The notes below the pieces were generated by a model, which saw nothing but the letters and a program-made list of their open reading frames with translations, was not told the origin of the DNA and searched no databases. A DNA stretch of 62,835 nucleotides from Candidatus Nealsonbacteria bacterium RIFCSPLOWO2_01_FULL_43_32 (GTDB lineage Bacteria; Patescibacteriota; Minisyncoccia; Minisyncoccales; MHMH01): assembly GCA_001819335.1 (NCBI GenBank), contig MHMH01000021.1, positions 1-62,835 of the forward strand. The letters are read 5' to 3'. Position 1 is the first letter of the stretch, and every line of letters begins with the position of its first letter. Shown piece by piece: positions 6,235-57,828 of this stretch. A program made the position numbers and the translations under genes.

Positions 6235-6242
6235 GCCCTAAA

Positions 6243-7436: not shown

Positions 7437-7453
7437 GCATATTCATATTTTTC

Positions 7454-13130: not shown

Positions 13131-13196
13131 ATTTTTTTATTTTACCTTAATTAGAATCGGACGACAAGGGCTCAAAGAAGCTTCGCTTCTTTTCGA

Positions 13197-13228
13197 CTTT
13201 CGCCCCGCTTTGCGGGGCTTGGTGCTTG
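13197..13228. repeat. GC-rich hairpin repeat, intergenic copy
   Basis: ctttcgCCCCGCtttGCGGGGcttggtgcttg: same loop and flanks, with a third compensated stem variant. Confidence 0.6.
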
Positions 13229-13254
13229 ATTTTTTCTGTTCCTTAAACTAAAGT
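13226..13254 (+). promoter_or_regulatory. Weak promoter candidate for the sugar transferase gene
   Basis: TTGATT, 17-nt spacer, TAAAGT, ATG 7 nt downstream. Confidence 0.25.
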
Positions 13255-13261
13255 AAAGAAG

Positions 13262-16485: not shown

Positions 16486-16496
16486 AAATTTTTTAT

Positions 16497-18953: not shown

Positions 18954-18995
18954 ATTTTTAGTTAAATTAAATTTTAATAATAAATAATGATGTGA

Positions 18996-20508: not shown

Positions 20509-20557
20509 ATTATTACGGAAGCCGTTGAACATGTCAAGAGGTGTCAAAAAGGGTCAT
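20509..20557 (-). promoter_or_regulatory. Internal promoter with three phased 10-bp repeats (second copy of the 18-nt element)
   Basis: Minus strand: TGACCCTTTT TGACACCTCT TGACATGTTC, with TTGACA at 20537-20532, a 17-nt spacer and AATAAT at 20514-20509. The ATG at 20497 lies 11 nt downstream. Confidence 0.6.
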
Positions 20558-34228: not shown

Positions 34229-35589
34229 ATCGTTTTTTGAATATGATAAATTTTTCTGTTCAATTTTTCCTTCCAATAAGCGTAGGTTTTCTTAAAGAGA
34301 CCGTTAGGCGGCAGGTTAATCAAAACTTTGACCAAGGGAAAAAGAATCGGGAAAGAAACGGTCAGACAAAACAGCTTCTGCAAATTATTAATCTTGGCTT
34401 TGTCTTTAATATCCAAAACGCTATCTTCAAAAAAGGTTTCTGATATTTTGTCGATATCGCCGTCATAGATGCCCTTTTGAACACACAAATCACCTAATTT
34501 GGTCCGGGGATAAGGCTGATAGATGGAAGCCCAGCCTAAATCGGGCTTACATAAAATATTAAGTTTCAGAGTTTCAAGGTCATCCTTAAGAGAGCCCTCG
34601 GGCAAGCCCAGCATATTGAAAATTCTTAATTTTAATCCGGCCTTTTTAACGAGTCCAGATGCTCTGATAATTTGGTCTTTAGTCATATTTCTTTCAAGAA
34701 TTTGATTGCGCAGGCGGTCGTCGGCGGTTTCGATGGCAAAGGTCACCCCAGAGCACTCCGCTTTTTTGAGAAACCCCACCAATCTTTCATTGATTAAATT
34801 AATCCGCGCATGGCAATGGAACGGTAGCCCGATAACCTTGGGGTATTGCTCGCTGAATTCCCCCAGCCATTCGTCTTCCGTGCCGAAAGTGTCGTCCTGG
34901 AAATAAGCCATTGCCATGGGATAGTGATTTTTCACTTCCAGCATTTCCTGAAGCAGATTATCAACCGACCGAAATCTGACATATTGGCCCTTGCCCTGAT
35001 AAATCGTTTTTAAAGAATGGTTGAAGCAGTACGGACAGTTAAAGGGACAGCCCCGACCGCCCAGGAAATTTTTAATGGGGTTATCGCGGGATTTGGGATA
35101 TTTTCGGTAAATCAGCTCTCGGTCGGGAAAGGCCAAAGAGTCAATGTCGTTTAATGGCCTAACGTCATTTTTAATGATGGCGCCGTTCTTTTTAACCCAT
35201 AAATTGGGGATCGTGGAGAAATCTTCTCCTTTGGCCAGCTTATCGGCCAATTCGGCAAAAGCTTCTTCGCCCTCTCCGATACAAATAATATCAACGCCTT
35301 CATTTTTAATAATTTCCGTGAAGAAGGTCGGATGCGACCCGCCAAAAACAGCTAAAAATTTAAACTGGCTTTTAAGTTTCTTGTTGAGATCGAGAAAATA
35401 TCCGTGCTGACCGGTAGTTAAACTGTAGGCAACGATATCGGGCGCAAAATTTTTAACTTTTTCCTCAATGTTTTCTACGCCAGCTTTCACGATATCGGTT
35501 TTGTGACCGGCTTTTTTCAAAGCTCCCGCAATATACATAATACCTAAAGGCTCAATGATAAAATCTCTGGTGATAAATAAGATTTTCAT
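34225..35589 (-). CDS. B12-binding-domain radical SAM protein (subfamily A)
   Basis: 454 aa. GEGEEAF, NLWVKKNGAIIKNDVR and GRGCPFNCPYCFNH. Confidence 0.9.
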   Translation of the reverse strand: MKILFITRDFIIEPLGIMYIAGALKKAGHKTDIVKAGVENIEEKVKNFAPDIVAYSLTTGQHGYFLDLNKKLKSQFKFLAVFGGSHPTFFTEIIKNEGVDIICIGEGEEAFAELADKLAKGEDFSTIPNLWVKKNGAIIKNDVRPLNDIDSLAFPDRELIYRKYPKSRDNPIKNFLGGRGCPFNCPYCFNHSLKTIYQGKGQYVRFRSVDNLLQEMLEVKNHYPMAMAYFQDDTFGTEDEWLGEFSEQYPKVIGLPFHCHARINLINERLVGFLKKAECSGVTFAIETADDRLRNQILERNMTKDQIIRASGLVKKAGLKLRIFNMLGLPEGSLKDDLETLKLNILCKPDLGWASIYQPYPRTKLGDLCVQKGIYDGDIDKISETFFEDSVLDIKDKAKINNLQKLFCLTVSFPILFPLVKVLINLPPNGLFKKTYAYWKEKLNRKIYHIQKTI

Positions 35590-36596
35590 TTTTTAAGAAT
35601 GACTTTTACGGCTTCAGCAAGATTTTTAACCGAATAATGCGGCCTGAATTTTAAATCATCGGGGAAGCGCTTGCCCACGAAAATCGTTTTAAGGTTGGCT
35701 TCCCGGCCCATCTGGATATCCTTAGGACTGTCGCCTACTATCCAGCTCTTGCTTAAATTCAAGCCGAAATCTTTGGCCGCAGACTCCGTCATGCCGGTTT
35801 TCGGTTTGCGGCAGGAGCAATTGTCTCTCTCGGTATGAATGCAATAATAAATTCTATCAATCCTGATGCCTGATTTTTTAAACTGCGAAAGCATGTAGCG
35901 ATGGATTTCCTGCAAGTCTTTTTCTGTGAAGTAACCCCTCCCCACGCCCAATTGGTTGGTGACGATAATGATCTTATAATCGGTTTTGGAAAGTTTTCTT
36001 AAGGCGGGCAGTACTCCCGGAATAAATTTAAAATCTTCTTTTTTGTGCGGGTACTCGGGCTCATTGATATTAATCGTCCCATCTCTGTCTAAAAAAACCG
36101 CTCGGACTTCGGGTTTGGCATAAATACTGATGATTTTCTTGACGAGAGCGCTGGTCGAAAGGCCGGGTACGGTTTTCAGAATATGAATTTGACCGCCGTT
36201 TTGTTCCACTACCTCCCTTTCCACACAGTCTTTGCCCCAGTCGGCGCCATGGCAATGAATGTCGGGTTTAATTTTATTTAAAATTTCCTTAGGATTGATT
36301 TCATCAAAAAGCACCACGTAATCTACGCAATTTAAAACCGCCAAGGTTTGAGCGCGCTCACCTTCCGAAATGATCGGATGATTGGGTCCTTTATAAATCC
36401 TAACGGATTTGTCGCTGTTTAAGGGCACAATTAAAACATCGCCCTGGACCTTGGCCTCTTCTAAAGATTTAATGTGGCCTAAATGCAAAATGTCAAAACT
36501 GCCGTTGTAGGTGACAACTGTTTTTTTGCGTTTCTTGAAACGCCGGCAGATCTGGATAATCTCTTTTTGAGTTTTAATTTTGGTTTGGGTTGACAT
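35586..36596 (-). CDS. Fusion: heptose-1-P adenylyltransferase (RfaE domain II-like) plus D,D-heptose-1,7-bisphosphate phosphatase (GmhB-like)
   Basis: 336 aa. N-terminal half: TYNGSFDILHLGHIKSL cytidylyltransferase fold. C-terminal half: VFLDRDGTIN...VTNQ...CSCRKPKTGM...GDSPKDIQMG. Confidence 0.8.
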   Translation of the reverse strand: MSTQTKIKTQKEIIQICRRFKKRKKTVVTYNGSFDILHLGHIKSLEEAKVQGDVLIVPLNSDKSVRIYKGPNHPIISEGERAQTLAVLNCVDYVVLFDEINPKEILNKIKPDIHCHGADWGKDCVEREVVEQNGGQIHILKTVPGLSTSALVKKIISIYAKPEVRAVFLDRDGTININEPEYPHKKEDFKFIPGVLPALRKLSKTDYKIIIVTNQLGVGRGYFTEKDLQEIHRYMLSQFKKSGIRIDRIYYCIHTERDNCSCRKPKTGMTESAAKDFGLNLSKSWIVGDSPKDIQMGREANLKTIFVGKRFPDDLKFRPHYSVKNLAEAVKVILKK

Positions 36597-37578
36597 AATC
36601 TGCCAAACTTGCTTTCAATTCTTCGGGCAAAACGACGGTCGTGCCCGGCTTGCCCACGCTCACGCCGCAGGCGTGGCTGCTCAAAATGATCGCTTTTTTA
36701 AAATCAGCCCCACTCGATAGCGCCAGAGCGAAAACAGCGATAGCGGTATCGCCAGCACCCGAAACATCCACCGGCATTTTATTGACGGCCGGATAGCGGA
36801 AGGGGTTGCCGTTTTTCTCAAAGACAACCAATCCCTCGCCGCTACATTTAACTACCACATTATCAGACATCATATTAGCTAAAAGCATTTTGCCGGCCTG
36901 ACAAAATCTGCCTTCCTGCGCCAACCGTTCTACAGGAATGTTCAAGAGCGCACCCAATTCTTGCTTATTGGGGGCGATAATATTGCAACCATGGTATTTC
37001 GAAGGTTCGGTTCCTTTGGGGTCAACGAACGATAAAACGTTATTATCTTTGGCTAAAGCAATCAGCCGCCGAGCCAAATTGGGCGTAACCACTCCTTTGG
37101 CGTAATCTGAAATAATGACAGCGTTTAAATTTTTGATCTGGCTGCCGATAAAACTTAAAAGCTTTTCTTCTATTTCCGACCTAATTGGTTTTTTGTCCTC
37201 AATATCAATCCTGACAATATGTTGATTTTTGGCCACGGCCCTGGTTTTGAGAGTGGTTTTTCTTTGGGAATCAACGGCAATACCCGTAGTGTCAATGCCT
37301 TTTTCGTCTAATAAGGTCTTTAACAAAACTCCGTTTTCGTCTGCCCCCACTACGCCGGCCAAAAATACCTTTCCTCCCAAACTCTGAAGGTTGTAGGCTG
37401 TATTGGCGGCTCCGCCGGGCCGCTGATTGATTTCTTTGACGTCTAAAATCGGGATAGGTGCTTCGTGAGAAATCCGCTCAACGCTGCCGATCAAATACTG
37501 GTCCAGCATCAGATCGCCTACCACCAAAATTTTCTGGTTTTTGAAATTTTCGATGATGTTTAAAAATTGTTCTTCCAT
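36574..37578 (-). CDS. D-beta-D-heptose-7-phosphate kinase (RfaE domain I / PfkB family)
   Basis: VGDLMLDQY...PGGAANTA...VDVSGAGDT. I prefer the ATG at 37578. The track start at 37611 is TTG. Confidence 0.8.
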   Translation of the reverse strand: MEEQFLNIIENFKNQKILVVGDLMLDQYLIGSVERISHEAPIPILDVKEINQRPGGAANTAYNLQSLGGKVFLAGVVGADENGVLLKTLLDEKGIDTTGIAVDSQRKTTLKTRAVAKNQHIVRIDIEDKKPIRSEIEEKLLSFIGSQIKNLNAVIISDYAKGVVTPNLARRLIALAKDNNVLSFVDPKGTEPSKYHGCNIIAPNKQELGALLNIPVERLAQEGRFCQAGKMLLANMMSDNVVVKCSGEGLVVFEKNGNPFRYPAVNKMPVDVSGAGDTAIAVFALALSSGADFKKAIILSSHACGVSVGKPGTTVVLPEELKASLADYVNPNQN

Positions 37579-37591
37579 ATGATGGTTATGA

Positions 37592-38158
37592 TTAAGAAAC
37601 TCGGGAATCAATTAAACGACAAATAATATGGCCGATCAAAATATGAATTTCTTGAGTCCGGTCGCTTTCTTGAGACGGCACCACCAACGGAATATCAACT
37701 AAATTTTTCAGCAGGCCGCCGTCATTGCCTAGAAATCCGATAGTTTTCAATCCTTTAAATTTAGCGACTTCAACGGCTCTAATAATATTCTGTGAATTAC
37801 CGCTGGTGGAAATGGCGATTAAAATGTCGTCTTTGCCGCCCAGGGCCTCGATCTGTCTGGAGAACAATACATCATATCCATAATCATTGGCAACCGCTGT
37901 CATAATTGAGGTATCGGTGGTGAGAGCTATGGCCGGCAAGCCCCGGCGTTCTTTTTTAAAGCGTCCCACGAGTTCCGCGGCAATATGCTGGGCATCGGCG
38001 GCCGAGCCTCCATTCCCGCAAAGTAAAAGTTTTCTGCCTTGAGCATAAGCATTAATAATCAAATCGGCGACTTGAGCGATTTTAGGAACCAACTCATCTT
38101 TAACTGCTTGATGAAGCTCGATATTCTTATCGAATAGTAATTTAATAATATTTTCCAT
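37592..38158 (-). CDS. gmhA: Phosphoheptose (sedoheptulose-7-P) isomerase
   Basis: SIS domain: LLCGNGGSAADAQHIAAELVGRF...ISTSGNS. The ATG at 38158 lies 2 nt after the HTH stop. The track start at 38167 is GTG. Confidence 0.88.
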   Translation of the reverse strand: MENIIKLLFDKNIELHQAVKDELVPKIAQVADLIINAYAQGRKLLLCGNGGSAADAQHIAAELVGRFKKERRGLPAIALTTDTSIMTAVANDYGYDVLFSRQIEALGGKDDILIAISTSGNSQNIIRAVEVAKFKGLKTIGFLGNDGGLLKNLVDIPLVVPSQESDRTQEIHILIGHIICRLIDSRVS

Positions 38159-38160
38159 GT

Positions 38161-38406
38161 TTACCACTTAGCAATGGCTCTTTTGGCTTTAGTTTTGATT
38201 TTCTTATAAACACTGTAAACCTTGTCTTCAACTTCCGGTGAAACCAATCTTAAAATTTCCGCGCCCCAGATGCGGTATTGGCCTCCTACTTTATAGGCGC
38301 GGAGAGTCCCTTTTTTCAAAAGCCGCTTGATCGTGCTTTCGGAGATCTTTAAAAAATCGCGGGCTTCTTCGGTCGTATAAATTTGCTTTGGTTCAATCTC
38401 CTCCAT
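38161..38406 (-). CDS. Small excisionase/MerR-like HTH (HTH_17) DNA-binding protein, probably leaderless
   Basis: YTTEEARDFLKISESTIKRLLKKGTLRAYKVGGQYRI. The ATG at 38406 sits 7 nt after a TATGAT -10 box. The track start at 38451 is the TTG of the -35 hexamer. Confidence 0.7.
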   Translation of the reverse strand: MEEIEPKQIYTTEEARDFLKISESTIKRLLKKGTLRAYKVGGQYRIWGAEILRLVSPEVEDKVYSVYKKIKTKAKRAIAKW

Positions 38407-38412
38407 GTTCCC

Positions 38413-38460
38413 ATCATAAATCGACCAAGAACAGGTGTCAAGAGGTGTCAAAAGGTGTTA
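38413..38460 (-). promoter_or_regulatory. Strong sigma70-like promoter with three phased 10-bp direct repeats over the -35 region
   Basis: Minus strand: TAACACCTTT TGACACCTCT TGACACCTGT, with TTGACA at 38441-38436, a 17-nt spacer and TATGAT at 38418-38413. Confidence 0.7.
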
Positions 38461-38471
38461 TTGCGCAAATC

Positions 38472-38497
38472 AAAAAGGACAAGCACAAAGCTTGTCC
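38472..38497 (-). terminator. Rho-independent terminator after the hldD-like gene
   Basis: Minus strand GGACAAGC-tttgt-GCTTGTCC followed by TTTTTGATTTG. Confidence 0.85.
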
Positions 38498-38510
38498 CTT
38501 TCTTATAAGT

Positions 38511-39305
38511 CTAGCGAAGGCAATGATGGGTTAAATAATCCTTAATCCCCTCTTCTAAGGAATAATCCGGCTTAAAGCCCCAGCCCAATTTGGCTTTGGT
38601 AAATCTTTGATATCTGCCCTTATAGGGATTGGAAATATAAACAGGCTCTTTTTTAGTTCCGAGATTCTTTTGAACGTTATTCAAAACGTCGTCAAAGGTC
38701 CGGGGCTTGCCCGTACCCGCGTCATAAATGCCGTTTTTGGCCTTTATGGCGGTCTGCAGTGCTTTAATGATGTCTTTAACGTAGACGAAGTCTCTTTTGC
38801 TCTGGCGCTCTTCTTTAAAGACCACCGGCCTTTTGCCGGCTTTAATCTGCAAAGCCCAATTGGTCACCATGCTGGCCATGCGGCCTTTTTGTTTTTCTCT
38901 GGGACCATAAACGTTAAAGAATCTCAAACCGACAATCGGGAGCCTGTTGAAGAAAAACTTAGCAATCTCGTCAACTAACTCTTTGGAGTTGGCATAAGCG
39001 GTTTTCTGATAATCACCATAAATGGCGGCGCTGGAAGCATAAATGAGTTTGGACTTGCCTTTGAGGGCGAAATCCAAAACATTAAGAAACCCCGCGATAT
39101 TGTTTCGATACATATCAACATCATCAGGATAACGGGTGTTGGTATTAGCCGCTAAATGATAAATGACGTCAAAATCGTTTTTCAGCTTAATTTTTTGGCA
39201 AACATCCTTATCGTAAACCAACACCTTGTTTTTAGAATTTTTCCTTAATTCTTCGACTAAATTCAAGCCGACGAACCCCTTGCCTCCGGTAACAAAAAAT
39301 TTCAT
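38511..39305 (-). CDS. hldD: ADP-L-glycero-D-manno-heptose-6-epimerase-like SDR
   Basis: 264 aa. TGGKGFVG, YANSK, and FFNVYGPREKQKGRMASMV, which closely resembles the HldD signature. Shorter than classical HldD. Confidence 0.7.
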   Translation of the reverse strand: MKFFVTGGKGFVGLNLVEELRKNSKNKVLVYDKDVCQKIKLKNDFDVIYHLAANTNTRYPDDVDMYRNNIAGFLNVLDFALKGKSKLIYASSAAIYGDYQKTAYANSKELVDEIAKFFFNRLPIVGLRFFNVYGPREKQKGRMASMVTNWALQIKAGKRPVVFKEERQSKRDFVYVKDIIKALQTAIKAKNGIYDAGTGKPRTFDDVLNNVQKNLGTKKEPVYISNPYKGRYQRFTKAKLGWGFKPDYSLEEGIKDYLTHHCLR

Positions 39306-39326
39306 AACAAATATTTTAAACTAATA

Positions 39327-41836: not shown

Positions 41837-41840
41837 ATAT

Positions 41841-43865
41841 TTAGCGGGGTTCGGCCTCCTGACTCACCTCATAAATTCTGGCAAACTGATTCCCCTCGCC
41901 CGCTGCCAATTTAAGTGTCAGGTCATTATTAGCCAAACATTTTTCTTCCAAGCCTTTGGGCCAATACTCGTTAGTATATAAATAACGGTAGTTTAAAGCT
42001 TTTAAGCCATCAGCCGAGCATTCTTTCAAAACCTTTTCATACCAAACTGTTTCAGGGATACGTTCTTCTATGCCGCGATGAAGCTTAGGGAACTGCTCGC
42101 CTATGTCATAAAAAAAGCCGGGAGCAAACCTGCCGGTATAAATGGTAAATCTTGAATTGTGCCAAAGGACTAATTCCCCTCCAAAAGTTAAAAAATGATC
42201 TTTGATGGCAGTATTCCTTTTAATCCAAGCAAACGCTTCGAATTCTACCGGATTTAGCTCAACTGGCTCCTCTAAAAGAGGATGGCCTGTTTCCAATTGA
42301 GGAAAAACCGGGGAAGCGACCAAATAGAATAATCCCTGGAAGATGACGCCTGAAATCAAAATAATTATCAATAATCTTTGCCATTTTTTCTGAAAAAACA
42401 AAAGTAACCATCCCAAAAATAAGCCGAAAATCAAATTCCAAAAAAGTGAAGTCAAAAAGTGAAGGCGCATAAAATCGCCCTGTGAAGAAGCGCCAGCCGT
42501 CACCACCAGCGGAAGGAAAAAAGAAACCAAGACAAGCAATATCAAAAATAAACCCAGTTGAAAGTATTTTTTAAGAACATAAAAAGCCGCCGGGATAATA
42601 AAAATTATCAACCATCCCCATCCCAAAAAAACGGTTGAGCTGAAAATCGGAATAAAAACATTTTCTTCAACAAATATTAATCCCCCAAAAAGATATTGCG
42701 GGGTAATTGAAAGGGAACGTTCCATGGGTAGAACGTCGCCCAAAAAAGCTTGTTTGATACTTTGGGTTAAAACTCCGCCCTGAAAAACGGCTACGGTAAT
42801 CCCCAAAAATAATATTAAAAAAGAAATCTTTAAGCAGAATTTACCTTTTTCCCAATCTTTTTTTAAAATTGTGAAAATCAACGGGTAAATCAAAAAAACT
42901 GCACATAAAACTCCGAAAAATATTTCCGCGCTTAAGGCTAAAAAAGAAAATAGGATAGCGGCCAGGCAAGAGATTTTAAACCAATTCTTTTCATCATTGA
43001 TCGCCCTAAAATATAAATAGCTAACCGCGATGGTTAAGGCAAAGCCGAGCATTACCCAAGCAAGTTGAAAAAGAGGGATAACGAGAACGCCGCGCATAAC
43101 CCCGCCAAATATCATATCGTTCAAAAATTTAAATGGCGCTTCAACCGGCAGCTGAAGAATATATTTTTGGTATAAAGAAGATATCCCTCCTGCCCCGTAA
43201 AGGAAATTTAAATTACCCCCGAAAATCATTATCAAAGAAGCAAGATAGGCTTTAAAATCATTTTTACAAAAATCCCTTATCAGCAGAAAACCCAGCAAAA
43301 ATACGAGTCCGATAAAAATGGCGTTCTGAAAATCGTAGCTGAACCAAACCGGCAAATCGGTAATTTTAGAGACAGCCGCTAAAAATAGCACGTAACCGTA
43401 GTGATATTGGGAGAGAAAATTAGGCGCAGATACTTCTTTCACCGGGAAATTTCCTTCAGCAACTGTAGCGGCCAGAGGAAGAGGAGAACCCATTTCGTCT
43501 GATGAGATATATCGCATTCCGGCTATTCCGACAAAAACCATAATCAAAAGGGCGGTGCCGAACAAAATTATTCTCCATTTTTTCTCAATCCCCCATGCTG
43601 TTTTTCCCTTCCCACCGTTTACGCGGAAAAGAAACCAGCTCAAAAATATAAAAATAACGCACAGCAAATAAAAATTAATCCTGATGTCAATGAAATAGGA
43701 AAAGGCGTTGAGAAAGAAAAGATAAATACTGTAGCCCAAGATGGCTGCCAGGGGGATCAGGGCTTCAATTCTTTTTTCATTAAGGATGAATCTCGCTGAT
43801 TGCCAACCGAAAGCGAATAATATTGAACAAAATACGAATAATTTTAAGAGAATGAAAGCTATCAT
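41841..43865 (-). CDS. Large polytopic membrane protein with C-terminal soluble domain (possible GT-C-type glycosyltransferase or polymerase)
   Basis: 674 aa, more than 12 hydrophobic segments, then a soluble tail of about 150 aa. I recognise no family signature. Confidence 0.4.
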   Translation of the reverse strand: MIAFILLKLFVFCSILFAFGWQSARFILNEKRIEALIPLAAILGYSIYLFFLNAFSYFIDIRINFYLLCVIFIFLSWFLFRVNGGKGKTAWGIEKKWRIILFGTALLIMVFVGIAGMRYISSDEMGSPLPLAATVAEGNFPVKEVSAPNFLSQYHYGYVLFLAAVSKITDLPVWFSYDFQNAIFIGLVFLLGFLLIRDFCKNDFKAYLASLIMIFGGNLNFLYGAGGISSLYQKYILQLPVEAPFKFLNDMIFGGVMRGVLVIPLFQLAWVMLGFALTIAVSYLYFRAINDEKNWFKISCLAAILFSFLALSAEIFFGVLCAVFLIYPLIFTILKKDWEKGKFCLKISFLILFLGITVAVFQGGVLTQSIKQAFLGDVLPMERSLSITPQYLFGGLIFVEENVFIPIFSSTVFLGWGWLIIFIIPAAFYVLKKYFQLGLFLILLVLVSFFLPLVVTAGASSQGDFMRLHFLTSLFWNLIFGLFLGWLLLFFQKKWQRLLIIILISGVIFQGLFYLVASPVFPQLETGHPLLEEPVELNPVEFEAFAWIKRNTAIKDHFLTFGGELVLWHNSRFTIYTGRFAPGFFYDIGEQFPKLHRGIEERIPETVWYEKVLKECSADGLKALNYRYLYTNEYWPKGLEEKCLANNDLTLKLAAGEGNQFARIYEVSQEAEPR

Positions 43866-45169
43866 TTAATGGCTATGGCTTTCTTAAAACTGGTCACAAA
43901 ATTAACTGCCTGAGAGAGATTATCAAAAAGATAATCCGGCTTAGCGTCACCATCCTGGCAACCTCGGCCGGTCTTTACTCCGATCGTCGTCATGCCGGCA
44001 TTCCGGCCGCACAAAATATCCCTGAAAGAATCGCCGATGAAATAAGAATGTTTTAGATCAATATTGAAGTCTCTTTTCGCTTTTTTCACCAGGCCGATTT
44101 TCGGTTTACGGCACGAACACTTAATTTTATATTTCTGATTCTCTCCTTTATAACCCTTGTCGGGGTGATGCGGACAGAAATAAATGCCGTCAAGTTTCGC
44201 CCCTTTTTCGCCCAAGATGGTTTCCATCTTGCACTGGATTGCGGCAATATCATCTATCGAACGAAATCCCTTGGCCACGGCCGGCTGATTGGTAATAACA
44301 ATGGCTAAAAATTCAGACTCATTTATTTTTTTAATGGCAGCGGCGCTCCAGGGAAAAAGCTTAAAGCTACCCGGACGAAAAATTTCATAAGAAGCTTGAC
44401 TGATCGTGCCATCACGGTCAAAAAAAATAGCTCTTCTTTTATTTTCCCTGTTAAGCCGACTGATTTTGCCTTTTTGATAATCTTTCTGGACTTGAATTAA
44501 TCTGGCCGAAGTGCCGATATCCTTAATATATTCGGCGGTCAGATAACCGTACATTTTTTCTTTTCGGACAATTTTGGGGAAAATGTCTTTACCGAAATCT
44601 GCTTTTACCCCTCGCTTAATATGCCGTAAAATCTTGGGCGACATAATATAGATGGCGGCGTTGACCAAATTCCTGAAATATTGATTAGAGGGATGGGGTT
44701 TGGGATGGAAAGCAATAATTTTCTGGTCTTTATCAATTTCCACCAAATCACTGTCTTCTAAATGCGAAGTCGGGTGTGATACTAGCGTGCAAGCGCTTTT
44801 TTTGTTTTTATGAAAAGCAATAACTCTTGTAAGATCTATGTCTAACATCTTATCTCCGTAGATAACCAGAAAATCGTCTTTTAGTTTATTGGCTATTTCT
44901 TTGATGCCGCCGGTGGTTCCCAAAGGCTCTTTTTCTTTGAAATAACTAATTTTCATTCCCCAATCTCGTCCGTCTTTGAAATATTTTTCAATAACCTCCG
45001 AAAGATAGTGGGTTAAAATAATAACCTCCTTGAGGCCGTATCTTTTTAATAGATTAATCTGATGTTCCAAAACGGGCAAACCGCCAATTTTTAACATTGG
45101 CTTGGGGGTGTTTAGGGTTTTTTTTCCCATTCTTTCCCCGCGGCCGCCGGCCAAAATAATCGCTTTCAT
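43862..45169 (-). CDS. Fusion: heptose-1-P nucleotidyl(guanylyl)transferase (HddC-like) plus GmhB-like HAD phosphatase
   Basis: 435 aa. N-terminal half: IILAGGRGERMGKKTLNTPKPMLKIGG. C-terminal half: IFFDRDGTI...ITNQPAVAKG...CSCRKPKIGL...GDSFRDILCG. Confidence 0.8.
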   Translation of the reverse strand: MKAIILAGGRGERMGKKTLNTPKPMLKIGGLPVLEHQINLLKRYGLKEVIILTHYLSEVIEKYFKDGRDWGMKISYFKEKEPLGTTGGIKEIANKLKDDFLVIYGDKMLDIDLTRVIAFHKNKKSACTLVSHPTSHLEDSDLVEIDKDQKIIAFHPKPHPSNQYFRNLVNAAIYIMSPKILRHIKRGVKADFGKDIFPKIVRKEKMYGYLTAEYIKDIGTSARLIQVQKDYQKGKISRLNRENKRRAIFFDRDGTISQASYEIFRPGSFKLFPWSAAAIKKINESEFLAIVITNQPAVAKGFRSIDDIAAIQCKMETILGEKGAKLDGIYFCPHHPDKGYKGENQKYKIKCSCRKPKIGLVKKAKRDFNIDLKHSYFIGDSFRDILCGRNAGMTTIGVKTGRGCQDGDAKPDYLFDNLSQAVNFVTSFKKAIAIK

Positions 45170-45170
45170 A

Positions 45171-46496
45171 CTAAAGTTTATATTCTTGGTTTCGGGCGTC
45201 GTCGTAAAACATTTTAACAGTTTCCAGCGAATAATCCTTTAAGTCTTTTCCGATTCTGTCCAGTTTTTTTAAGAAACCGGGCAGAACGGTAATAATGTCG
45301 CAATTCGCTTCTTCGGCCTGAAAAATATCAAAGACTTGGCGGGGACTCGCCCATAAAAGTTCTAAATTCTTAAAACCGCGGAGAAATTCTTTAGCCTCTT
45401 TCATAATAGGCACCGGATCTCTGCCGGTATCAGCGATCCTGCCAGCAAAAACCGAAACAATACCCGGGGCGGCTGAAGAAAAAGCGGGGGCAATATGTTT
45501 TACCTGATCCAGATCTAGGATAGCTGTAACGTTTATTTTTATTCCTTGGCTGGAAAGTTCCTTGATCAACTCGAAAGACGATTCGGCTTTAGTGTTTGTG
45601 ATGGGGATTTTGACATAAATATTTTCTCCCAGCCTGTTGATTATTTTAGCTTGCCTCGCCATTTCCGGGAAATCGTCGGAAAAAACTTCAAGAGAAACCG
45701 GTTTATCTTTGATAGCCGCCAGTATTTCTTTGGCGAAGGCTTGATAGTCAATCACTCCAGCCTCTTTCATTAATGAGGGGTTGGTCGTAAAGCCCTTAAC
45801 TAAGGGATTCTGATTAAATTCCAACATAGTTTGCTTATCGGCTCCGTCAGCAAAAATTTTAACCTTTAATTCTCCTATTTTTTTTACCATATTTATTTCT
45901 GATATTTTTTTTCTTAACGCCAAACAAACTAAATGACTTAAGGTAGGGTGAAGGGATTCCACCAGGGGCGTTCCGAAGGGCTCGGAATTAATCGGGACAG
46001 TAATACAAACGTCGCTCATCTCTTTCATTTTACCTCCCTCAAAACCGCTAAAACCGATCACCTTGGCTCCTTTTTCTTTGGCGAAGGCCATCGCTTGGAC
46101 CAGGTTTTGCGACCATGGACCCGCTTCACCTGCTCCCGAGCCTCCATGAACCGAAAAACCGATCAAAACATCTCCTTGACCCAGCCAGTTTTGCAACTGA
46201 CCCTTAAACACGCTGCCCCAGCCGCTGTCATTAGTCCAAGCAGAAACCAAGGGGATGTTGTCAACCAACGAGATGGTTTTTAACCCCTTTTTACCGGGCA
46301 CAATCGTGGATTTGGCCAAATCGCAAGCAAGGTGGGTGGCGGTTGAAGCAGAACCACCACAACCCATAATATAAACAATTCGTTCGTTTTTCCACGCCGT
46401 AAAAAGAAGCTCAACAATTTCGTTGATTTTCTCTTTATCAATCTCTTTGATAATTCTCTCTAGTTCGGAGAAGTAATTTTTTATAACCTCATCCAT
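45171..46496 (-). CDS. Fusion: SIS (GmhA-like isomerase) domain plus transaldolase/Fsa-family domain
   Basis: 441 aa. N-terminal half: IMGCGGSASTATHLACDL. C-terminal half: IFADGAD...GFTTNPSL...VKIPIT...NVTAI...SVFAGRIADTGRD. Confidence 0.8.
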   Translation of the reverse strand: MDEVIKNYFSELERIIKEIDKEKINEIVELLFTAWKNERIVYIMGCGGSASTATHLACDLAKSTIVPGKKGLKTISLVDNIPLVSAWTNDSGWGSVFKGQLQNWLGQGDVLIGFSVHGGSGAGEAGPWSQNLVQAMAFAKEKGAKVIGFSGFEGGKMKEMSDVCITVPINSEPFGTPLVESLHPTLSHLVCLALRKKISEINMVKKIGELKVKIFADGADKQTMLEFNQNPLVKGFTTNPSLMKEAGVIDYQAFAKEILAAIKDKPVSLEVFSDDFPEMARQAKIINRLGENIYVKIPITNTKAESSFELIKELSSQGIKINVTAILDLDQVKHIAPAFSSAAPGIVSVFAGRIADTGRDPVPIMKEAKEFLRGFKNLELLWASPRQVFDIFQAEEANCDIITVLPGFLKKLDRIGKDLKDYSLETVKMFYDDARNQEYKL

Positions 46497-46516
46497 AATA
46501 TATTACAATACAACAT

Positions 46517-47488
46517 TTAAATAAAATTGGCAATAACCTTTATGCCGTCAAAATCGAAACGAAAATACTCTCCTCTTAGCCCTTCGGCCGCCATCGCCTT
46601 TTTTAAATCCTCCTTTTTATCTTCACAATAAAAAACAAAGAAGCCTCCGCCGCCAGCCCCCATCAATTTGCCACCCATGGCCCCAGCCTTTTTGGCTATT
46701 TCATACCAGCGATTAATTTGGGAATTTGAGGTGCCGTCCCTTTCCATTTTTTTCTGCCAATGAAGGTCTAATAATTTCCCGAATTCCGAAAAATTATTTT
46801 GGGCTAAAGCTATTTTGATATCCTGGCCTATTTTCCTGACCTGATGGAGATTATCAATGGCTTGAGCTTGAGTTTTTAATACTGGACCGGACTCCCTTCT
46901 GATGCCGGTATAAAACATTAAAAGATTGTTCTCTAATTTTCTGACGATTTCCGGAGAAAAGATTTGGGGATAGAGCGGTGTTACCGCCACCTCACCGTTT
47001 TTATTTGCCGAAAAAGAGGTAATACCGCCAAAAGCCGCGATATATTCGTCTTGTTTGCCCGACGGTTCTTTAAGTAAATTCATGGCGATGTGGCAGGCCT
47101 GTTCAGCGATTTGTTTTCGGGGTGGAATATCGTTGCTCAAAAAAGCGTGCAGGGCTGTAAGCAGGGCGACCGTAAAGCTTCCCGACGTGCCCAAACCGGT
47201 ATTTGAAGGAACATCGGCAATGGAAACAATCTCGATGCCTCCTTTTATCCCCAATAATTTAAGAGCTTCTCTAACGATAGGGTGTTGGACCTGCTCGGGG
47301 CTTGCTACCTCTTCGGTTTTGGAATAACTTATTCTTAAAGAATCATCGAACCTTTTATTGACGATGATGTAAATATATTTATTAATTGCGGCCGAAATCC
47401 ATTCTCCGCCGAACTGAGAGTAATAAGAGGGCAGGTCGGTACCCCCTCCGCCGATCGGTATTCTTAGTGGCGCTCGAACAATAATCAT
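46517..47488 (-). CDS. hddA: GHMP kinase, D-glycero-alpha-D-manno-heptose-7-phosphate kinase-like
   Basis: 323 aa. RAPLRIPIGGGGTDLPSYY, PSNTGLGTSGS and GAGGGGFF. Confidence 0.8.
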   Translation of the reverse strand: MIIVRAPLRIPIGGGGTDLPSYYSQFGGEWISAAINKYIYIIVNKRFDDSLRISYSKTEEVASPEQVQHPIVREALKLLGIKGGIEIVSIADVPSNTGLGTSGSFTVALLTALHAFLSNDIPPRKQIAEQACHIAMNLLKEPSGKQDEYIAAFGGITSFSANKNGEVAVTPLYPQIFSPEIVRKLENNLLMFYTGIRRESGPVLKTQAQAIDNLHQVRKIGQDIKIALAQNNFSEFGKLLDLHWQKKMERDGTSNSQINRWYEIAKKAGAMGGKLMGAGGGGFFVFYCEDKKEDLKKAMAAEGLRGEYFRFDFDGIKVIANFI

Positions 47489-48396
47489 ATTTTGTTTTTA
47501 ATATAACCCATCTCTTTTAGCAAGTCTCTGATTGATCTTCTGACGGCTTCTTTTGAGATTAATTTTGGCTCCCAGCCTAATTGATTTATCTTTTCAGTAT
47601 TTATCCTGACTTTCGGCACATCGCCTTTCCAACCCCTGGGGCTAGTGCCAAAATGCATTTTCACGTTTTTTAAGCCCATCTCGTTAATTGTTATCTTAGC
47701 GATTGTTTTAACATCAACAAAAGTATCTGACGCTAAATTAAATAAATTAACTTTATCGTTTGATTTTTCAATCGCTAAAATTATGGCATTGATTAAATCG
47801 TCGACGTAAAGATAGGATTTGCTTTGGCTGCCGTCACCGAGAATTTGTAAGTTTTTGGGGTCGTTTTTTAATTTTCTTATAAAATCATAACCTACGCCAT
47901 GGGTCTGGCGGCGGCCCACAATATTGGCTGGCCGGAAAATCCACGACTGCATGCCATACATATTGCAGTAAGCTGAAATCAGGGCTTCAGCCGCTAATTT
48001 ACTGGCGCCATACATTGAAACTGGCAGTAGGGGGCCAAAATTCTCTTTGGTGTATTTTGTTCCTTGGTCCCCGTAAACTCCGCTCCCTGAAGTATAGACA
48101 ATCTTTTTGATATTATTCTGCCTCATTGCTTCTAAAACATTAAAGGTGGTAATAATTCCCTGGTCTAAATCCAACTTCGGGTATTTCTCGCTCTTAGCGA
48201 TGTCGGGATTAGAAGCTAAATGGAAAACAAAATTATGGTTTTTTATCGCTTTTTTAAGTTTTTCGAAATCAAGCAGATCTTCCCCGTTTCTTATATCGTA
48301 TACGGCGATCTGGTTTTGTTTGCCCAACCTTTCGACCAAATTGCTCCCTATAAAACCGGCTCCTCCGGTAATGAAAATTTTCTTTTTATTTAACAT
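47485..48396 (-). CDS. NAD-dependent epimerase/dehydratase
   Basis: 303 aa. ITGGAGFIGSNLV and YGASK. Confidence 0.85.
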   Translation of the reverse strand: MLNKKKIFITGGAGFIGSNLVERLGKQNQIAVYDIRNGEDLLDFEKLKKAIKNHNFVFHLASNPDIAKSEKYPKLDLDQGIITTFNVLEAMRQNNIKKIVYTSGSGVYGDQGTKYTKENFGPLLPVSMYGASKLAAEALISAYCNMYGMQSWIFRPANIVGRRQTHGVGYDFIRKLKNDPKNLQILGDGSQSKSYLYVDDLINAIILAIEKSNDKVNLFNLASDTFVDVKTIAKITINEMGLKNVKMHFGTSPRGWKGDVPKVRINTEKINQLGWEPKLISKEAVRRSIRDLLKEMGYIKNKI

Positions 48397-57827: not shown

Positions 57828-57828
57828 A

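What the first reader, a model, noticed from the sequence alone, without database searches (positions are those of the whole stretch)
35586..48396. Two complete nucleotide-heptose pathways side by side, each with GmhB fused to its own nucleotidyltransferase
Seen in sequence: the ADP-type set is GmhA (37592), RfaE-I kinase (36574), an RfaE-II adenylyltransferase fused to GmhB (35586), HldD-like epimerase (38511) and a GT9 heptosyltransferase (39327). The GDP-type set is SIS/GmhA (45171), the GHMP kinase HddA (46517), an HddC-like nucleotidyltransferase fused to GmhB (43862) and an extra epimerase/dehydratase (47485). Established: the two routes use beta- and alpha-anomeric heptose-1,7-bisphosphates. 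ADP-L,D-heptose normally feeds Gram-negative LPS core, and GDP-D,D-heptose feeds capsules and S-layer glycans. Inference: the classical HldE kinase/adenylyltransferase fusion is split here and re-fused in a different order (transferase plus phosphatase), in parallel in both pathways. This suggests selection for channelling of the 1-phosphate intermediate. I saw no LPS-core, lipid A or Kdo genes in the window, so the ADP-heptose acceptor is unclear.
Basis: partly seen in the sequence, partly recalled or inferred. Interest (0 to 1): 0.65.

Follow-up and report, generated by a model that had tools for sequence, protein, structure and literature searches.

The report
Two heptose-sugar pathways with fused enzymes
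A tiny groundwater bacterium of the candidate phyla radiation, a group reported to have no outer membrane, carries two different seven-carbon-sugar (heptose) activation pathways side by side in one huge surface-sugar operon, each with the phosphatase joined to the next enzyme; the pathways are known, while these joined forms are common in databases, absent from the papers I could search, and partly hidden by the public annotation.

Summary
All nine genes sit at the stated coordinates on the minus strand.

- **Set A:** GmhA, a PfkB kinase (HldA/RfaE-I), an HldC(RfaE-II)-GmhB fusion, a short HldD and a GT9 transferase.
- **Set B:** a GHMP kinase of HddA/WcbL type, a sugar-1-P nucleotidyltransferase-GmhB fusion and a GalE-like SDR.

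The fused reading frames are real. Contigs from four independent metagenome runs cover them without indels, and all 120 listed relatives of each family share the architecture.

The host is a Parcubacteria/Nealsonbacteria-like CPR bacterium. CPR are reported to be monoderm, which explains why there are no lipid A or Kdo genes. Both sets lie in a roughly 37-kb operon with Wzx-like, Wzy_C-type and priming-transferase genes, nine B12-radical-SAM genes, methyltransferases and a carbamoyltransferase.

Neither fusion is unique to this locus. HldC-GmhB is widespread in CPR. NTase-GmhB occurs in CPR, DPANN archaea, Firmicutes, Bacteroidota and Planctomycetota. The side-by-side pairing was seen only in close relatives.

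"Channelling" is untested, and GmhB also fuses to transaldolase, which is not an adjacent step. "GDP" for set B is unproven. Overall this is a new architectural variant of known pathways, of moderate interest.

The parts
35586..36596 (-). Bifunctional HldC(RfaE-II)-GmhB, 336 aa. It should carry out heptose-1,7-bisphosphate 7-phosphatase and heptose-1-P adenylyltransferase activities. Linker about aa 156-163.
   Evidence: Domains. Motifs HxGH, DxDGT, VTNQ, CxH-5-CxC-RKP and GDSxxD read. AF2 pLDDT 93.5, pTM 0.78. Foldseek: C-terminal domain matches E. coli GmhB (TMt 0.87) and N-terminal domain matches B. pseudomallei HldC (TMt 0.88).
36574..37611 (-). HldA/RfaE-I type PfkB kinase (D,D-heptose-7-P 1-kinase, beta route), stand-alone.
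   Evidence: TIGR02198 343.6 bits, cutoff 345; PF00294. Adjacent to the fusion in 7 CPR loci.
37592..38167 (-). GmhA, sedoheptulose-7-P isomerase (set A).
   Evidence: TIGR00441 225 bits, above the 209 cutoff. GNGGS, H/E, STSGNS and Q/H motifs visible in the alignment.
38161..38451 (-). Small HTH_17/excisionase-type DNA-binding protein inside the operon.
   Evidence: PF12728 46.8 bits. Conserved at the same place in L011 (84% identity) and present in L012.
38511..39305 (-). Short (264 aa) HldD-like ADP-heptose 6-epimerase.
   Evidence: TIGR02197 214 bits, below the 275 cutoff, in 2 stretches. From memory of E. coli HldD, the GxxGxxG, SSAAxYG, YxxSK, FFNVYGPRE..KG.MAS and KGRYQ.FT motifs appear. 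Tblastn alignments to other CPR loci span about 296-309 columns. The 264-aa form is 89% identical in L011.
39327..40496 (-). GT9 heptosyltransferase (RfaF-like).
   Evidence: PF01075 81.7 bits; TIGR02195 134.1 bits, cutoff 134.6. PDB 3tov and 1psw. A GT9 gene lies upstream of HldA and HldC-GmhB in L001, L003 and L005.
40493..41836 (-). B12-binding radical SAM enzyme between the two sets.
   Evidence: PF02310 plus PF04055. No NCBIfam family reaches its cutoff. Syntenic in L011 at 85% identity.
41841..43865 (-). 674-aa polytopic membrane protein of unknown family, directly downstream of the set-B fusion.
   Evidence: No Pfam hit. Only 190 representative clusters in 1.84 billion. 13 of 63 relatives weakly hit DUF2298. 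No PDB hit. 84% identical and syntenic in L011.
43862..45169 (-). Bifunctional sugar-1-P nucleotidyltransferase-GmhB, 435 aa (set B).
   Evidence: PF00483 at aa 1-233; HAD-IIIA at aa 245-426. GGxGxR, DxDGT, ITNQ, CxH-16-CxC-RKP and GDSxxD read. All 120 listed relatives fused.
45171..46496 (-). SIS (GmhA-like)-transaldolase fusion, 441 aa. It would supply sedoheptulose-7-P and isomerise it.
   Evidence: TIGR02134 316.5 bits, above the 282 cutoff; SIS_2 48 bits; gmhA model 83 bits. Best PDB hits for the SIS part are phosphoheptose isomerases. The fusion recurs in dozens of the 120 listed clusters.
46517..47488 (-). GHMP kinase of HddA/WcbL type (D,D-heptose-7-P 1-kinase, alpha route).
   Evidence: PF00288 and PF08544. 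NF049969 139 bits, cutoff 600. Top PDB hits 3k85, 4usk/4usm and 4n3o, all heptose kinases.
47485..48396 (-). GalE-like extended SDR, probably an NDP-heptose epimerase or oxidoreductase.
   Evidence: PDB 3ehe 265.6 bits, 8rdg 245.8 bits. An SDR gene sits directly upstream of the NTase-GmhB gene in L013 and L014, and tblastn gives 43-44% identity there.
34225..35589 (-). B12-binding radical SAM enzyme overlapping the stop of HldC-GmhB by 4 nt.
   Evidence: The same adjacency occurs in L004, L008 and L011 at 66-86% identity.
10848..15804 (.). Glycan assembly genes of the same cluster: Wzy_C/O-antigen-ligase-like protein with TPR (10848-13130, -), Bac_transf priming transferase (13262-14560, +) and a Wzx-like flippase (14557-15804, +).

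Best explanation
**Setting.** The region is part of one very long minus-strand operon, from about 53100 down to about 15800. It builds a heavily decorated surface glycan in a Nealsonbacteria-like CPR bacterium; CPR are reported to be monoderm. The operon carries two separate nucleotide-heptose supply lines.

**Line A (beta route)**
1. GmhA converts sedoheptulose-7-P to D,D-heptose-7-P.
2. The stand-alone PfkB kinase HldA makes the beta-1,7-bisphosphate.
3. The C-terminal GmhB domain of the 336-aa fusion removes the 7-phosphate.
4. The N-terminal HldC domain of the same protein makes ADP-D,D-heptose.
5. The short HldD epimerises it to ADP-L,D-heptose.
6. The GT9 enzyme transfers it to a non-LPS acceptor. 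Most likely this is a polyprenyl-linked repeat unit that is later flipped and polymerised or ligated by the Wzx-like and Wzy_C proteins.

**Line B (alpha route)**
1. The transaldolase domain makes sedoheptulose-7-P from fructose-6-P and erythrose-4-P.
2. The fused SIS domain isomerises it.
3. The GHMP kinase makes the alpha-1,7-bisphosphate.
4. The GmhB domain of the 435-aa fusion dephosphorylates it.
5. The fused RmlA-fold nucleotidyltransferase makes an NDP-D,D-heptose. The nucleotide is not established; GDP is assumed by analogy.
6. The GalE-like SDR modifies that product.

**What is shown and what is inferred.** Shown here: domain identities, catalytic motifs, genuineness of the fusions, their distribution and the synteny. 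Inferred: substrates, anomers, the nucleotide of line B, the acceptors, and why the fusions exist. I think the fusions mainly fix stoichiometry and co-inheritance of pathway steps in small genomes. Some kinetic benefit from proximity is possible.
For: - **Domains.** HMM domain assignments are near or above curated cutoffs for set A and for the transaldolase.
- **Solved structures.** The best PDB matches are heptose enzymes: GmhB 2gmw/3l8e, HldC 5x9q/5xf2, HddA 3k85, WcbL 4usk, and GmhA 5ltz/2xbl.
- **Catalytic motifs.** HAD motifs I-IV and CxH...CxC zinc ligands are intact in both GmhB domains. HxGH is present in HldC and GGxGxR in the NTase.
- **Set B starts from sedoheptulose-7-P.** The transaldolase fused to SIS ties set B to that substrate rather than to a hexose.
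- **Conserved modules.** HldA and HldC-GmhB are adjacent in 7 CPR loci, with HldD after them in 4 and GT9 upstream in 3. The genes SDR, NTase-GmhB, GHMP kinase and SIS sit together in an archaeon; a Bacteroidota locus has the last three and a Firmicute the first two. The whole dual arrangement is syntenic in a Nealsonbacteria contig at 65-93% identity.
- **Beta versus alpha.** The A-domain GmhB is consistently closer than the B-domain to the solved GmhBs, three of which are reported beta-preferring, and to HisB-N (102.8/100/93.6 bits against 84.6/68/45.1).
- **Host and context.** Named relatives are Patescibacteria, a clade reported to be monoderm. Wzx-like, Wzy_C and Bac_transf genes are in the cluster. 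The ADP-L,D-heptose pathway was already noted in Paceibacteria (PMC9166423).
Against: - No enzyme has been assayed.
- Most equivalog scores fall below curated cutoffs. For set B they fall far below: HddA 139 bits against 600, HddC 108 against 300, and the gmhA model 83 against 209.
- Both GmhB domains score higher on the 'beta' model than on the 'alpha' model, so sequence gives no positive support for alpha preference in domain B.
- HldD lacks about 30-45 residues in the Rossmann region.
- No glycosyltransferase can be assigned to the line-B sugar.
- The 674-aa membrane protein has no assigned function.
- No transcript evidence was found.
- Only one contig of the genome was examined, so the absence of LPS genes rests on what is reported for CPR in general.
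Confidence: 0.75

Rival explanations
1. The fusions evolved specifically to channel heptose-1-phosphate from the phosphatase to the nucleotidyltransferase. It could matter most when both anomeric pathways coexist and cross-talk must be avoided.
For: - The fused domains catalyse consecutive steps.
- The linkers are short, about 8 and 12 residues.
- The AF2 model of the A fusion has pTM 0.78, which suggests a defined inter-domain arrangement.
- Two independent fusions of the same pair of activities exist.
Against: - Both fusions are common in loci where the other pathway was not found within 7-10 kb, so coexistence is not the driver.
- GmhB-type domains are also fused to transaldolase and to SIS-transaldolase, and the NTase-GmhB pair is fused to a P-loop kinase-like domain. 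These are not product-to-substrate neighbours.
- No kinetic or structural test of channelling is possible with these tools.
Confidence: 0.25
2. Set B is not a heptose pathway. It would be a generic hexose-1-P activation route, for example GDP-mannose, and its HAD domain would be a general sugar-phosphate phosphatase.
For: The NTase domain scores best on a mannose-1-P guanylyltransferase model (161.5 bits) and only 108 bits on HddC. All set-B equivalog scores are far below their cutoffs.
Against: - The HAD domain is the zinc-loop HAD-IIIA type, with GmhB as the best equivalog (140 bits).
- The kinase's four best PDB hits are all heptose-7-P kinases.
- The SIS domain's best PDB hits are phosphoheptose isomerases, and it is fused to a sedoheptulose-7-P-forming transaldolase.
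- A hexose-1-P route needs a mutase, not a kinase plus a 7-phosphatase.
Confidence: 0.05
3. The HAD domain of the set-A fusion is a histidinol-phosphate phosphatase relative, because it has a HisB-N-like 5-residue zinc loop, rather than GmhB.
For: The CxH and CxC motifs are separated by 5 residues, as in E. coli HisB-N. E. coli GmhB has 12. The phmmer score to HisB-N 2fpr is 93.6 bits.
Against: - The GmhB models score higher than the hisB_Nterm model: 174.5 and 140.4 bits against 111.1.
- The domain is fused to HldC and sits in an operon with HldA, GmhA, HldD and GT9 in several CPR genomes.
- HisB-N is reported to derive from within the beta-GmhBs (PMC9798254), so the resemblance is expected.
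Confidence: 0.03
4. The apparent fusions are assembly, frameshift or gene-calling artefacts. The public NCBI record lists only a 179-aa GmhB and a 239-aa transaldolase for a 62,835-bp contig, the same length as the window.
For: The shorter proteins P0249 and P0258 are the NCBI versions for that contig.
Against: - The reading frames are continuous.
- P0249 begins at an internal Ile codon of the same frame.
- JGI, ENA and Logan gene calls give 336 and 441 aa on contigs up to 103 kb.
- Four independent runs show no indels.
- Dozens to more than a hundred relatives have the full architecture.
Confidence: 0.02

Closest known systems
[quoted passage not shown]
   Same: Set A has the same five activities and a GT9 transferase. 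The kinase and adenylyltransferase are separate, as in organisms with HldA and HldC. Catalytic motifs are conserved.
   Different: - GmhB is fused to the C-terminus of HldC.
- HldD is 264 aa and has lost about 30-45 residues.
- The host belongs to a clade reported as monoderm, and no lipid A or Kdo genes are in the window, so the acceptor cannot be LPS core.
- The zinc loop of GmhB has 5 residues, not 12.
GDP-D-glycero-alpha-D-manno-heptose pathway (GmhA, HddA, GmhB, HddC) of Aneurinibacillus thermoaerophilus S-layer glycan, and the related capsule pathways of Bacteroides thetaiotaomicron, Campylobacter jejuni and Burkholderia pseudomallei (WcbL)
   Same: Set B has a SIS isomerase, a GHMP kinase whose best structural relatives are HddA and WcbL, a GmhB-type phosphatase and an RmlA-fold nucleotidyltransferase. 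An SDR follows for further sugar modification.
   Different: - The phosphatase is fused to the nucleotidyltransferase.
- The isomerase is fused to a transaldolase.
- The NTase is not a clear HddC orthologue, so the nucleotide is unknown.
The three architectures listed for heptose nucleotidyltransferases (monodomain; kinase/NTase didomain, which is HldE; isomerase/kinase/NTase tridomain) in a 2024 commentary (PMC11573728) on Tang et al., Science 2024
   Same: The N-terminal domain of the 336-aa protein is an HldC-type heptose nucleotidyltransferase.
   Different: An NTase/phosphatase didomain is not among the three listed types. The STTR5 arginine linked to CTP/UTP promiscuity is absent: the window has GLSTS, and none of the motif variants listed for the 120 relatives has Arg at that position.
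HisB (HisB-N phosphatase fused to imidazoleglycerol-phosphate dehydratase)
   Same: It is another case where a GmhB-derived zinc-loop HAD-IIIA phosphatase, with a 5-residue loop, became fused to another enzyme of its pathway.
   Different: The pathway and the fusion partner differ. HisB-N is the N-terminal domain, whereas here the GmhB domain is C-terminal.

Membership tests
GmhB (D,D-heptose-1,7-bisphosphate 7-phosphatase, HAD-IIIA) | HAD motifs I-IV (DxDGT, T/S in VTNQ, K in CRKP, GDxxxD) | tested here: met
   Both domains have them. A: FLDRDGT, VTNQ, CRKPK, GDSPKD. B: FFDRDGT, ITNQ, CRKPK, GDSFRD. DxDG[TV] is found in 115/120 and 117/120 relatives.
GmhB (D,D-heptose-1,7-bisphosphate 7-phosphatase, HAD-IIIA) | Zinc-binding cap with CxH...CxC | tested here: met
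   The spacer is 5 residues in A and 16 in B. The motif is described in PMC9798254.
GmhB (D,D-heptose-1,7-bisphosphate 7-phosphatase, HAD-IIIA) | Score above the curated equivalog cutoff | tested here: inconclusive
   NF006506 gives 174.5 bits for A and 140.1 for B against a cutoff of 178. The subfamily domain TIGR01656 passes for both (144.9 and 109.7 against 84).
GmhB (D,D-heptose-1,7-bisphosphate 7-phosphatase, HAD-IIIA) | Anomer preference (alpha or beta) read from sequence | not testable with these tools
   The papers on structural determinants (PMC2844805, PMC2844806) were not held. Both domains score higher on the beta model than on the alpha model. The only indirect evidence is that domain A is closer to solved GmhBs, three of them reported beta-preferring, and to HisB-N.
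HldE (bifunctional heptose-7-P kinase / heptose-1-P adenylyltransferase) | Kinase and adenylyltransferase in one polypeptide, kinase at the N-terminus | tested here: not met
   The kinase (36574-37611) and the adenylyltransferase (N-terminal half of 35586-36596) are separate ORFs. The NF008454 model matches each only partially.
HldC / RfaE domain II heptose-1-P adenylyltransferase | Cytidylyltransferase-like fold with HxGH and a C-terminal STT motif | tested here: met
   ILHLGH and GLSTS are present. TIGR02199 gives 157 bits, below the 181.5 cutoff. Foldseek TMt is 0.88 to B. pseudomallei HldC.
NTP-promiscuous heptose nucleotidyltransferases (STTR5 class) | (F/L)xxGRSTT motif with Arg at position 5 | tested here: not met
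   The window has PGLSTS. None of the motif variants listed has Arg at that position. The motif definition comes from PMC11573728.
HldA / RfaE domain I kinase | PfkB fold with a full-length match to the rfaE_dom_I equivalog domain | tested here: met
   TIGR02198 gives 343.6 bits over profile positions 2-314 of 315, 1.4 bits under the cutoff. The next best family, ribokinase, scores 86 bits.
HldD (ADP-glyceromanno-heptose 6-epimerase) | Extended SDR with the S/Y/K triad, a second catalytic Lys, and a full-length match to TIGR02197 | tested here: inconclusive
   By comparison with E. coli HldD recalled from memory, the motifs are present. The score is 214 bits against a cutoff of 275, and the protein has a roughly 30-45-residue deletion. 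The short form is conserved at 89% identity in L011.
HddA (GHMP heptose-7-P kinase, alpha-specific) | GHMP N- and C-terminal domains, with heptose kinases as closest relatives | tested here: met
   PF00288 and PF08544. The top four PDB hits are heptose kinases. The equivalog score is 139 bits against 600, so orthology is not established.
HddC (heptose-1-P guanylyltransferase) | Orthology to characterised HddC; GTP specificity | tested here: inconclusive
   NF049965 gives 108 bits against a cutoff of 300. Mannose-1-P guanylyltransferase (161 bits) and MurU (131 bits) models score higher. Yersinia HddC structures score 61-63 bits. The nucleotide cannot be determined here.
GmhA (sedoheptulose-7-P isomerase), set B SIS domain | Match to the GmhA equivalog and metal/catalytic residues | tested here: inconclusive
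   TIGR00441 gives 83 bits against a cutoff of 209. The best PDB hits are GmhAs. Compared with E. coli GmhA from memory, the two His are kept and the Glu and Gln positions read Asp and Glu.
GT9 LPS heptosyltransferase | GT9 domain | tested here: met
   PF01075 gives 81.7 bits. TIGR02195 gives 134.1 bits against a cutoff of 134.6.
GT9 LPS heptosyltransferase | Kdo2-lipid A or LPS inner-core acceptor | tested here: not met
   No lipid A or Kdo synthesis genes were found in the 62.8-kb window. The host belongs to CPR, reported to be monoderm. The rest of the genome could not be examined.

The most novel reading that the evidence does not exclude
CPR bacteria, reported to be monoderm, would use ADP-L,D-heptose and a GT9 transferase to build a non-LPS surface glycan. 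That glycan would contain both beta-route and alpha-route heptoses, further modified by the co-operonic B12-radical-SAM enzymes, methyltransferases and carbamoyltransferase. C-methylation or other carbon-centred sugar chemistry would be possible. The NTase-phosphatase didomains would form a functionally distinct fourth class of heptose-activating enzyme that really does hand over heptose-1-P between its active sites.
Probability: 0.2. Interest if true: 0.65.

Novelty: new variant of a known kind. Interest (0 to 1): 0.4.

Why it matters
**Heptose biology.** Nucleotide-heptoses are LPS and capsule precursors, and they are innate-immune agonists. A 2024 commentary (PMC11573728) says their roles outside LPS are still poorly understood. 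This locus gives a compact, self-contained example of three things:
- two anomeric routes in one operon;
- a sedoheptulose-7-P supply enzyme fused to the isomerase;
- a nucleotidyltransferase-phosphatase architecture that is absent from the three architectures listed in that commentary, yet is widespread in CPR and, for the alpha-type, across bacteria and archaea.

**CPR cell surfaces.** It points to heptose-containing surface glycans in CPR bacteria, which are reported to be monoderm and many of which are thought to live attached to host cells. Such glycans could matter for that lifestyle.

**Annotation.** The NCBI versions on record for what appears to be this contig are a 179-aa GmhB-only protein and a 239-aa transaldolase-only protein, and the transaldolase truncation recurs in a relative's NCBI record. 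Domain-architecture censuses built on such records would undercount these fusions.

Tried and rejected
**Searches that gave no usable result**
1. Anomer-specificity residues. The two Biochemistry 2010 papers were not held, and no accessible paper lists discriminating residues. The NCBIfam alpha and beta models do not discriminate.
2. Function of the 674-aa membrane protein.
   - It has no Pfam hit, and a profile of its relatives found nothing in the PDB.
   - Only 13 of 63 relatives gave weak DUF2298 hits.
   - hhalign found no link to the PMT_2 or EpsG-like neighbours of set-B modules in other loci (probability 2-9%).
3. Transcript evidence. Metatranscriptomes of the same study hold none of the sampled words.
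4. Literature on these fusions. Searches for GmhB+HddC+fusion, HldC+GmhB+bifunctional and GmhA+transaldolase+fusion found nothing relevant.
5. Genome-collection scan. With the single protein as query it returned only 10 loci, so the census of architectures rests mainly on the protein-cluster searches.

**Ideas considered and rejected**
- A recent duplication of one pathway into two. The GmhB domains are 34% identical and the isomerases 30%.
- An assembly artefact.
- Kdo genes in the window. The PF02348 gene at 23715-24479 scores best on PseF, at 84 bits, and no synthase is present.

Full report

Yes. The window has a continuous series of co-directional, mostly overlapping minus-strand ORFs across 35586-48396, exactly at the coordinates given.

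Set A, from Pfam and NCBIfam:
- 35586-36596 (336 aa) has an RfaE-domain-II/HldC cytidylyltransferase-like domain at aa 17-155 and a HAD-IIIA GmhB domain at aa 164-331.
- 36574-37611 is an RfaE-domain-I PfkB kinase (343.6 bits, cutoff 345).
- 37592-38167 is GmhA (225 bits, above the 209 cutoff).
- 38511-39305 is an HldD-like SDR.
- 39327-40496 is a GT9 glycosyltransferase (134.1 bits, cutoff 134.6, for heptosyltransferase II).

Set B:
- 43862-45169 (435 aa) has an NTP_transferase domain at aa 1-233 and a GmhB-type HAD-IIIA domain at aa 245-426.
- 46517-47488 is a GHMP kinase.
- 47485-48396 is an extended SDR.

One correction is needed. 45171-46496 is not just a SIS protein. It is SIS (aa 8-194) fused to a transaldolase (aa 209-440; TIGR02134 316.5 bits, above the 282 cutoff).

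Catalytic signatures can be read directly in the translations:
- HxGH and GLSTS in HldC.
- GGxGxR in the NTase.
- DxDGT, (V/I)TNQ, CRKPK and GDSxxD in both GmhB domains, plus the CxH...CxC zinc ligands.
- By comparison with E. coli HldD recalled from memory, the SSAAxYG, YxxSK, FFNVYGPRE..KG.MAS and KGRYQ.FT motifs.

**2. Are the fusions genuine?**

The reading frames have no stops. Logan contigs from four metagenome runs, from at least three studies, cover 35500-48500 with no insertions or deletions, and three of the four show no mismatches.

All 120 listed clusters for the 336-aa protein carry PF01467 plus HAD domains at 313-355 aa. All 120 listed clusters for the 435-aa protein carry PF00483 plus HAD domains.

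The NCBI versions on record for a 62,835-bp contig, the same length as the window, are a 179-aa GmhB-only protein that starts at an internal Ile codon of the same frame and a 239-aa transaldolase-only protein. JGI, ENA and Logan calls give the full 336 and 441 aa. The same transaldolase truncation occurs in a relative's NCBI record (L011). So the public annotation hides two of the three fusions.

**3. Who is the host, and what surrounds the genes?**

Named relatives of both fusions are Candidatus Nealsonbacteria, Parcubacteria and other Patescibacteria. A Nealsonbacteria contig (L011) is syntenic over the whole region at 65-93% protein identity. The sequence occurs in groundwater and soil metagenomes. 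CPR are placed in a monoderm clade (bioRxiv 10.1101/2021.05.31.446380).

The two sets are embedded in one long minus-strand operon, from about 53100 to about 15800. The surrounding cluster contains:
- a Wzy_C/O-antigen-ligase-like protein with TPR repeats, a Bac_transf priming transferase and a Wzx-like flippase;
- a GT4 transferase, several nucleotidyltransferases and a CDP-alcohol phosphatidyltransferase;
- nine B12-binding and three other radical SAM enzymes, plus class I methyltransferases;
- a carbamoyltransferase with an SxtJ-like neighbour.

This is a surface-glycan cluster, so the likely acceptor of the GT9 is a lipid-linked repeat unit. That is an inference.

**4. How general is it?**

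HldC-GmhB:
- It is widespread in CPR. In seven CPR loci HldA sits immediately upstream of HldC-GmhB. HldD follows in four of them and GT9 lies upstream in three.
- The only two non-CPR loci found matched a single domain each (Chlamydiia and Fusobacteriaceae).
- The zinc loop is 5 residues in 114 of 120 relatives.

NTase-GmhB:
- It is found in CPR, DPANN archaea (Woesearchaeota, Nanoarchaeota, Diapherotrites), Planctomycetota, Geosporobacter and Cryomorphaceae.
- The zinc loop is 16 residues in 105 of 120 relatives.
- About 25 of the 120 clusters carry a third, P-loop PRK/uridine-kinase-like domain.
- In a Woesearchaeota locus it sits between an SDR and a GHMP kinase plus SIS. A Bacteroidota locus has the kinase and SIS, and a Firmicute locus has the SDR.

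SIS-transaldolase recurs in dozens of the 120 listed clusters, including one from Bdellovibrionota. GmhB-type HAD domains are also fused directly to transaldolase (P0336, P0341, P0377) and to SIS-transaldolase (P0298).

The side-by-side occurrence of both sets was seen only in the window's close relatives: L011, and the same 539-kb contig as L012.

**5. Mechanism**

Line A runs as follows:
1. GmhA converts sedoheptulose-7-P to D,D-heptose-7-P.
2. HldA makes the beta-1,7-bisphosphate.
3. The GmhB domain makes beta-heptose-1-P.
4. The HldC domain makes ADP-D,D-heptose.
5. HldD makes ADP-L,D-heptose.
6. GT9 transfers the heptose to its acceptor.

Line B runs as follows:
1. The transaldolase domain makes sedoheptulose-7-P.
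2. The SIS domain isomerises it.
3. The GHMP kinase makes the alpha-1,7-bisphosphate.
4. The GmhB domain removes the 7-phosphate.
5. The NTase domain makes an NDP-D,D-heptose.
6. The GalE-like SDR modifies the product.

Support for the heptose assignment of line B:
- The kinase's four best PDB matches are all heptose kinases: 3k85, 4usk/4usm and 4n3o.
- The SIS domain's best PDB matches are phosphoheptose isomerases.
- The zinc-loop GmhB domain is present, and the transaldolase fusion ties the line to sedoheptulose-7-P.

Evidence on the beta and alpha assignment:
- The anomer is set by the kinase and the nucleotidyltransferase. GmhB only has a preference, reported as 6:1 to 1:150 alpha:beta (PMC9798254, PMC8204981).
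- Domain A is consistently closer than domain B to the solved GmhBs, three of which are reported beta-preferring, and to HisB-N.
- The NCBIfam alpha and beta models do not separate the two domains.

The nucleotide of line B is not established. The NTase scores 108 bits on HddC (cutoff 300), 161 bits on a mannose-1-P guanylyltransferase model and 131 bits on MurU.

For line A, the Arg of the STTR5 motif is linked to CTP/UTP promiscuity (PMC11573728). It is absent here: the window has GLSTS, and no listed relative motif has Arg at that position. This suggests ATP use.

The AF2 model of the A fusion is confident (pLDDT 93.5, pTM 0.78). Its halves superpose on E. coli GmhB (TMt 0.87) and B. pseudomallei HldC (TMt 0.88). 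No PDB chain covers both halves.

**6. Why fused?**

Three facts argue for a more general explanation:
- Both fusions are common in loci where the other route was not found nearby.
- GmhB also fuses to transaldolase and to SIS-transaldolase, which are not its metabolic neighbours.
- An extra kinase-like domain is often appended.

This is the usual pattern of pathway-module fusions. In small genomes such fusions fix stoichiometry and co-inheritance. Channelling remains a minority hypothesis that only kinetics or a structure can settle.

The phrase 'HldE split and re-fused' also overstates what the data show. The kinase and the adenylyltransferase are simply separate genes here, and nothing indicates an HldE ancestor at this locus.

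**7. Comparison with what is known, and novelty**

The chemistry is that of the two textbook heptose routes. The ADP-L,D-heptose pathway has already been noted in Paceibacteria (PMC9166423).

What the accessible literature does not describe is the NTase-phosphatase didomain and the GmhA-transaldolase fusion. A 2024 commentary on heptose nucleotidyltransferase architectures lists only mono-, di- (kinase/NTase) and tri-domain (isomerase/kinase/NTase) forms. Targeted literature searches found nothing on these fusions.

Both architectures are abundant in sequence databases, where they carry generic names such as 'HAD-IIIA family hydrolase' or 'D,D-heptose 1,7-bisphosphate phosphatase'.

I therefore rate this a new variant of a known kind, of moderate interest. 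The most interesting open points are:
- what the two heptoses are attached to in a clade reported to lack an outer membrane;
- what the many B12-radical-SAM enzymes in the same operon do to the glycan.

Noticed in passing
window 22237-62579 (22237-23715, 29347-30822, 30835-32475, 34225-35589, 40493-41836, 49107-50540, 51580-53100, 57799-59232, 61122-62579; plus 25260-26246, 50537-51592, 59241-60290): There are nine B12-binding radical SAM genes and three other radical SAM genes (one SPASM type) within about 40 kb of a glycan cluster. None reaches any NCBIfam family cutoff. The one at 34225-35589 overlaps the stop of HldC-GmhB, and this adjacency is conserved in L004, L008 and L011. Their substrates are unknown; carbon-centred modification of sugars is one possibility.
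   Followed up: partly
window 35586-36596 and 45171-46496; L011 8674-9996: The NCBI versions for a 62,835-bp contig are a 179-aa GmhB-only protein (P0249, starting at an internal Ile codon) and a 239-aa transaldolase-only protein (P0258). L011's NCBI record likewise calls only the 239-aa transaldolase part, although the full 441-aa frame is intact. Two of the three fusions are therefore hidden in the public annotation.
   Followed up: yes
window 41841-43865: A 674-aa polytopic membrane protein with a C-terminal soluble part sits directly downstream of the set-B fusion. Its family is rare, with 190 representative clusters in 1.84 billion proteins. It has no Pfam or PDB match, and 13 of 63 relatives weakly hit DUF2298. 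The alignment consensus contains a conserved PLAAT..EGNFPV..P..P.....YHYG stretch. It is syntenic in L011, and a 688-aa protein without Pfam hits lies in L012.
   Followed up: partly
window 38161-38451: A small HTH_17/excisionase-type (MamR-like) gene is wedged between HldD and GmhA inside the operon. It is conserved in L011 (84% identity) and a copy lies in L012. It may be a cluster-specific regulator.
   Followed up: partly
window 27835-29331: This is another fusion in the same operon: an extended SDR (epimerase/dehydratase, aa 14-251) joined to a HAD-IA phosphatase (aa 303-483).
   Followed up: no
window 15781-20497: A phosphonate-type ABC transporter (binding protein 18039-18953, ATPase 17269-18042, permease 16497-17288) sits between two MobA-like/sugar-phosphate nucleotidyltransferases and a CDP-alcohol phosphatidyltransferase. 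This suggests import and CDP-activation of a phosphonate or phospho-alcohol head group for glycan decoration.
   Followed up: no
window 53403-57827: A divergent plus-strand unit carries a carbamoyltransferase (606 aa), a methyltransferase, an SxtJ-like small membrane protein and a GDSL-like protein. This points to O-carbamoylation, and possibly acylation, of the glycan. L011 has a DUF5989 gene near the same position.
   Followed up: no
P0161, P0175, P0238 and about 20 other clusters; L015 7001-8869: Many NTase-GmhB relatives in DPANN archaea and Bacteroidota carry a third C-terminal P-loop PRK/uridine-kinase-like domain (about 625 aa in total). They still have a separate GHMP kinase next door. 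L012 has a phosphoribosyltransferase gene between SIS-TAL and NTase-GmhB. This may link the module to nucleotide supply, and it leaves the nucleotide of the set-B heptose open.
   Followed up: partly
window 5334-7996: Three adjacent genes encode a pyruvoyl-dependent arginine decarboxylase, a deoxyhypusine-synthase-like protein and an agmatinase/arginase-family protein. Together they look like a compact polyamine module next to MurB and SecA.
   Followed up: no
window 20554-22233: A 559-aa protein within the glycan operon has no Pfam or NCBIfam match.
   Followed up: no
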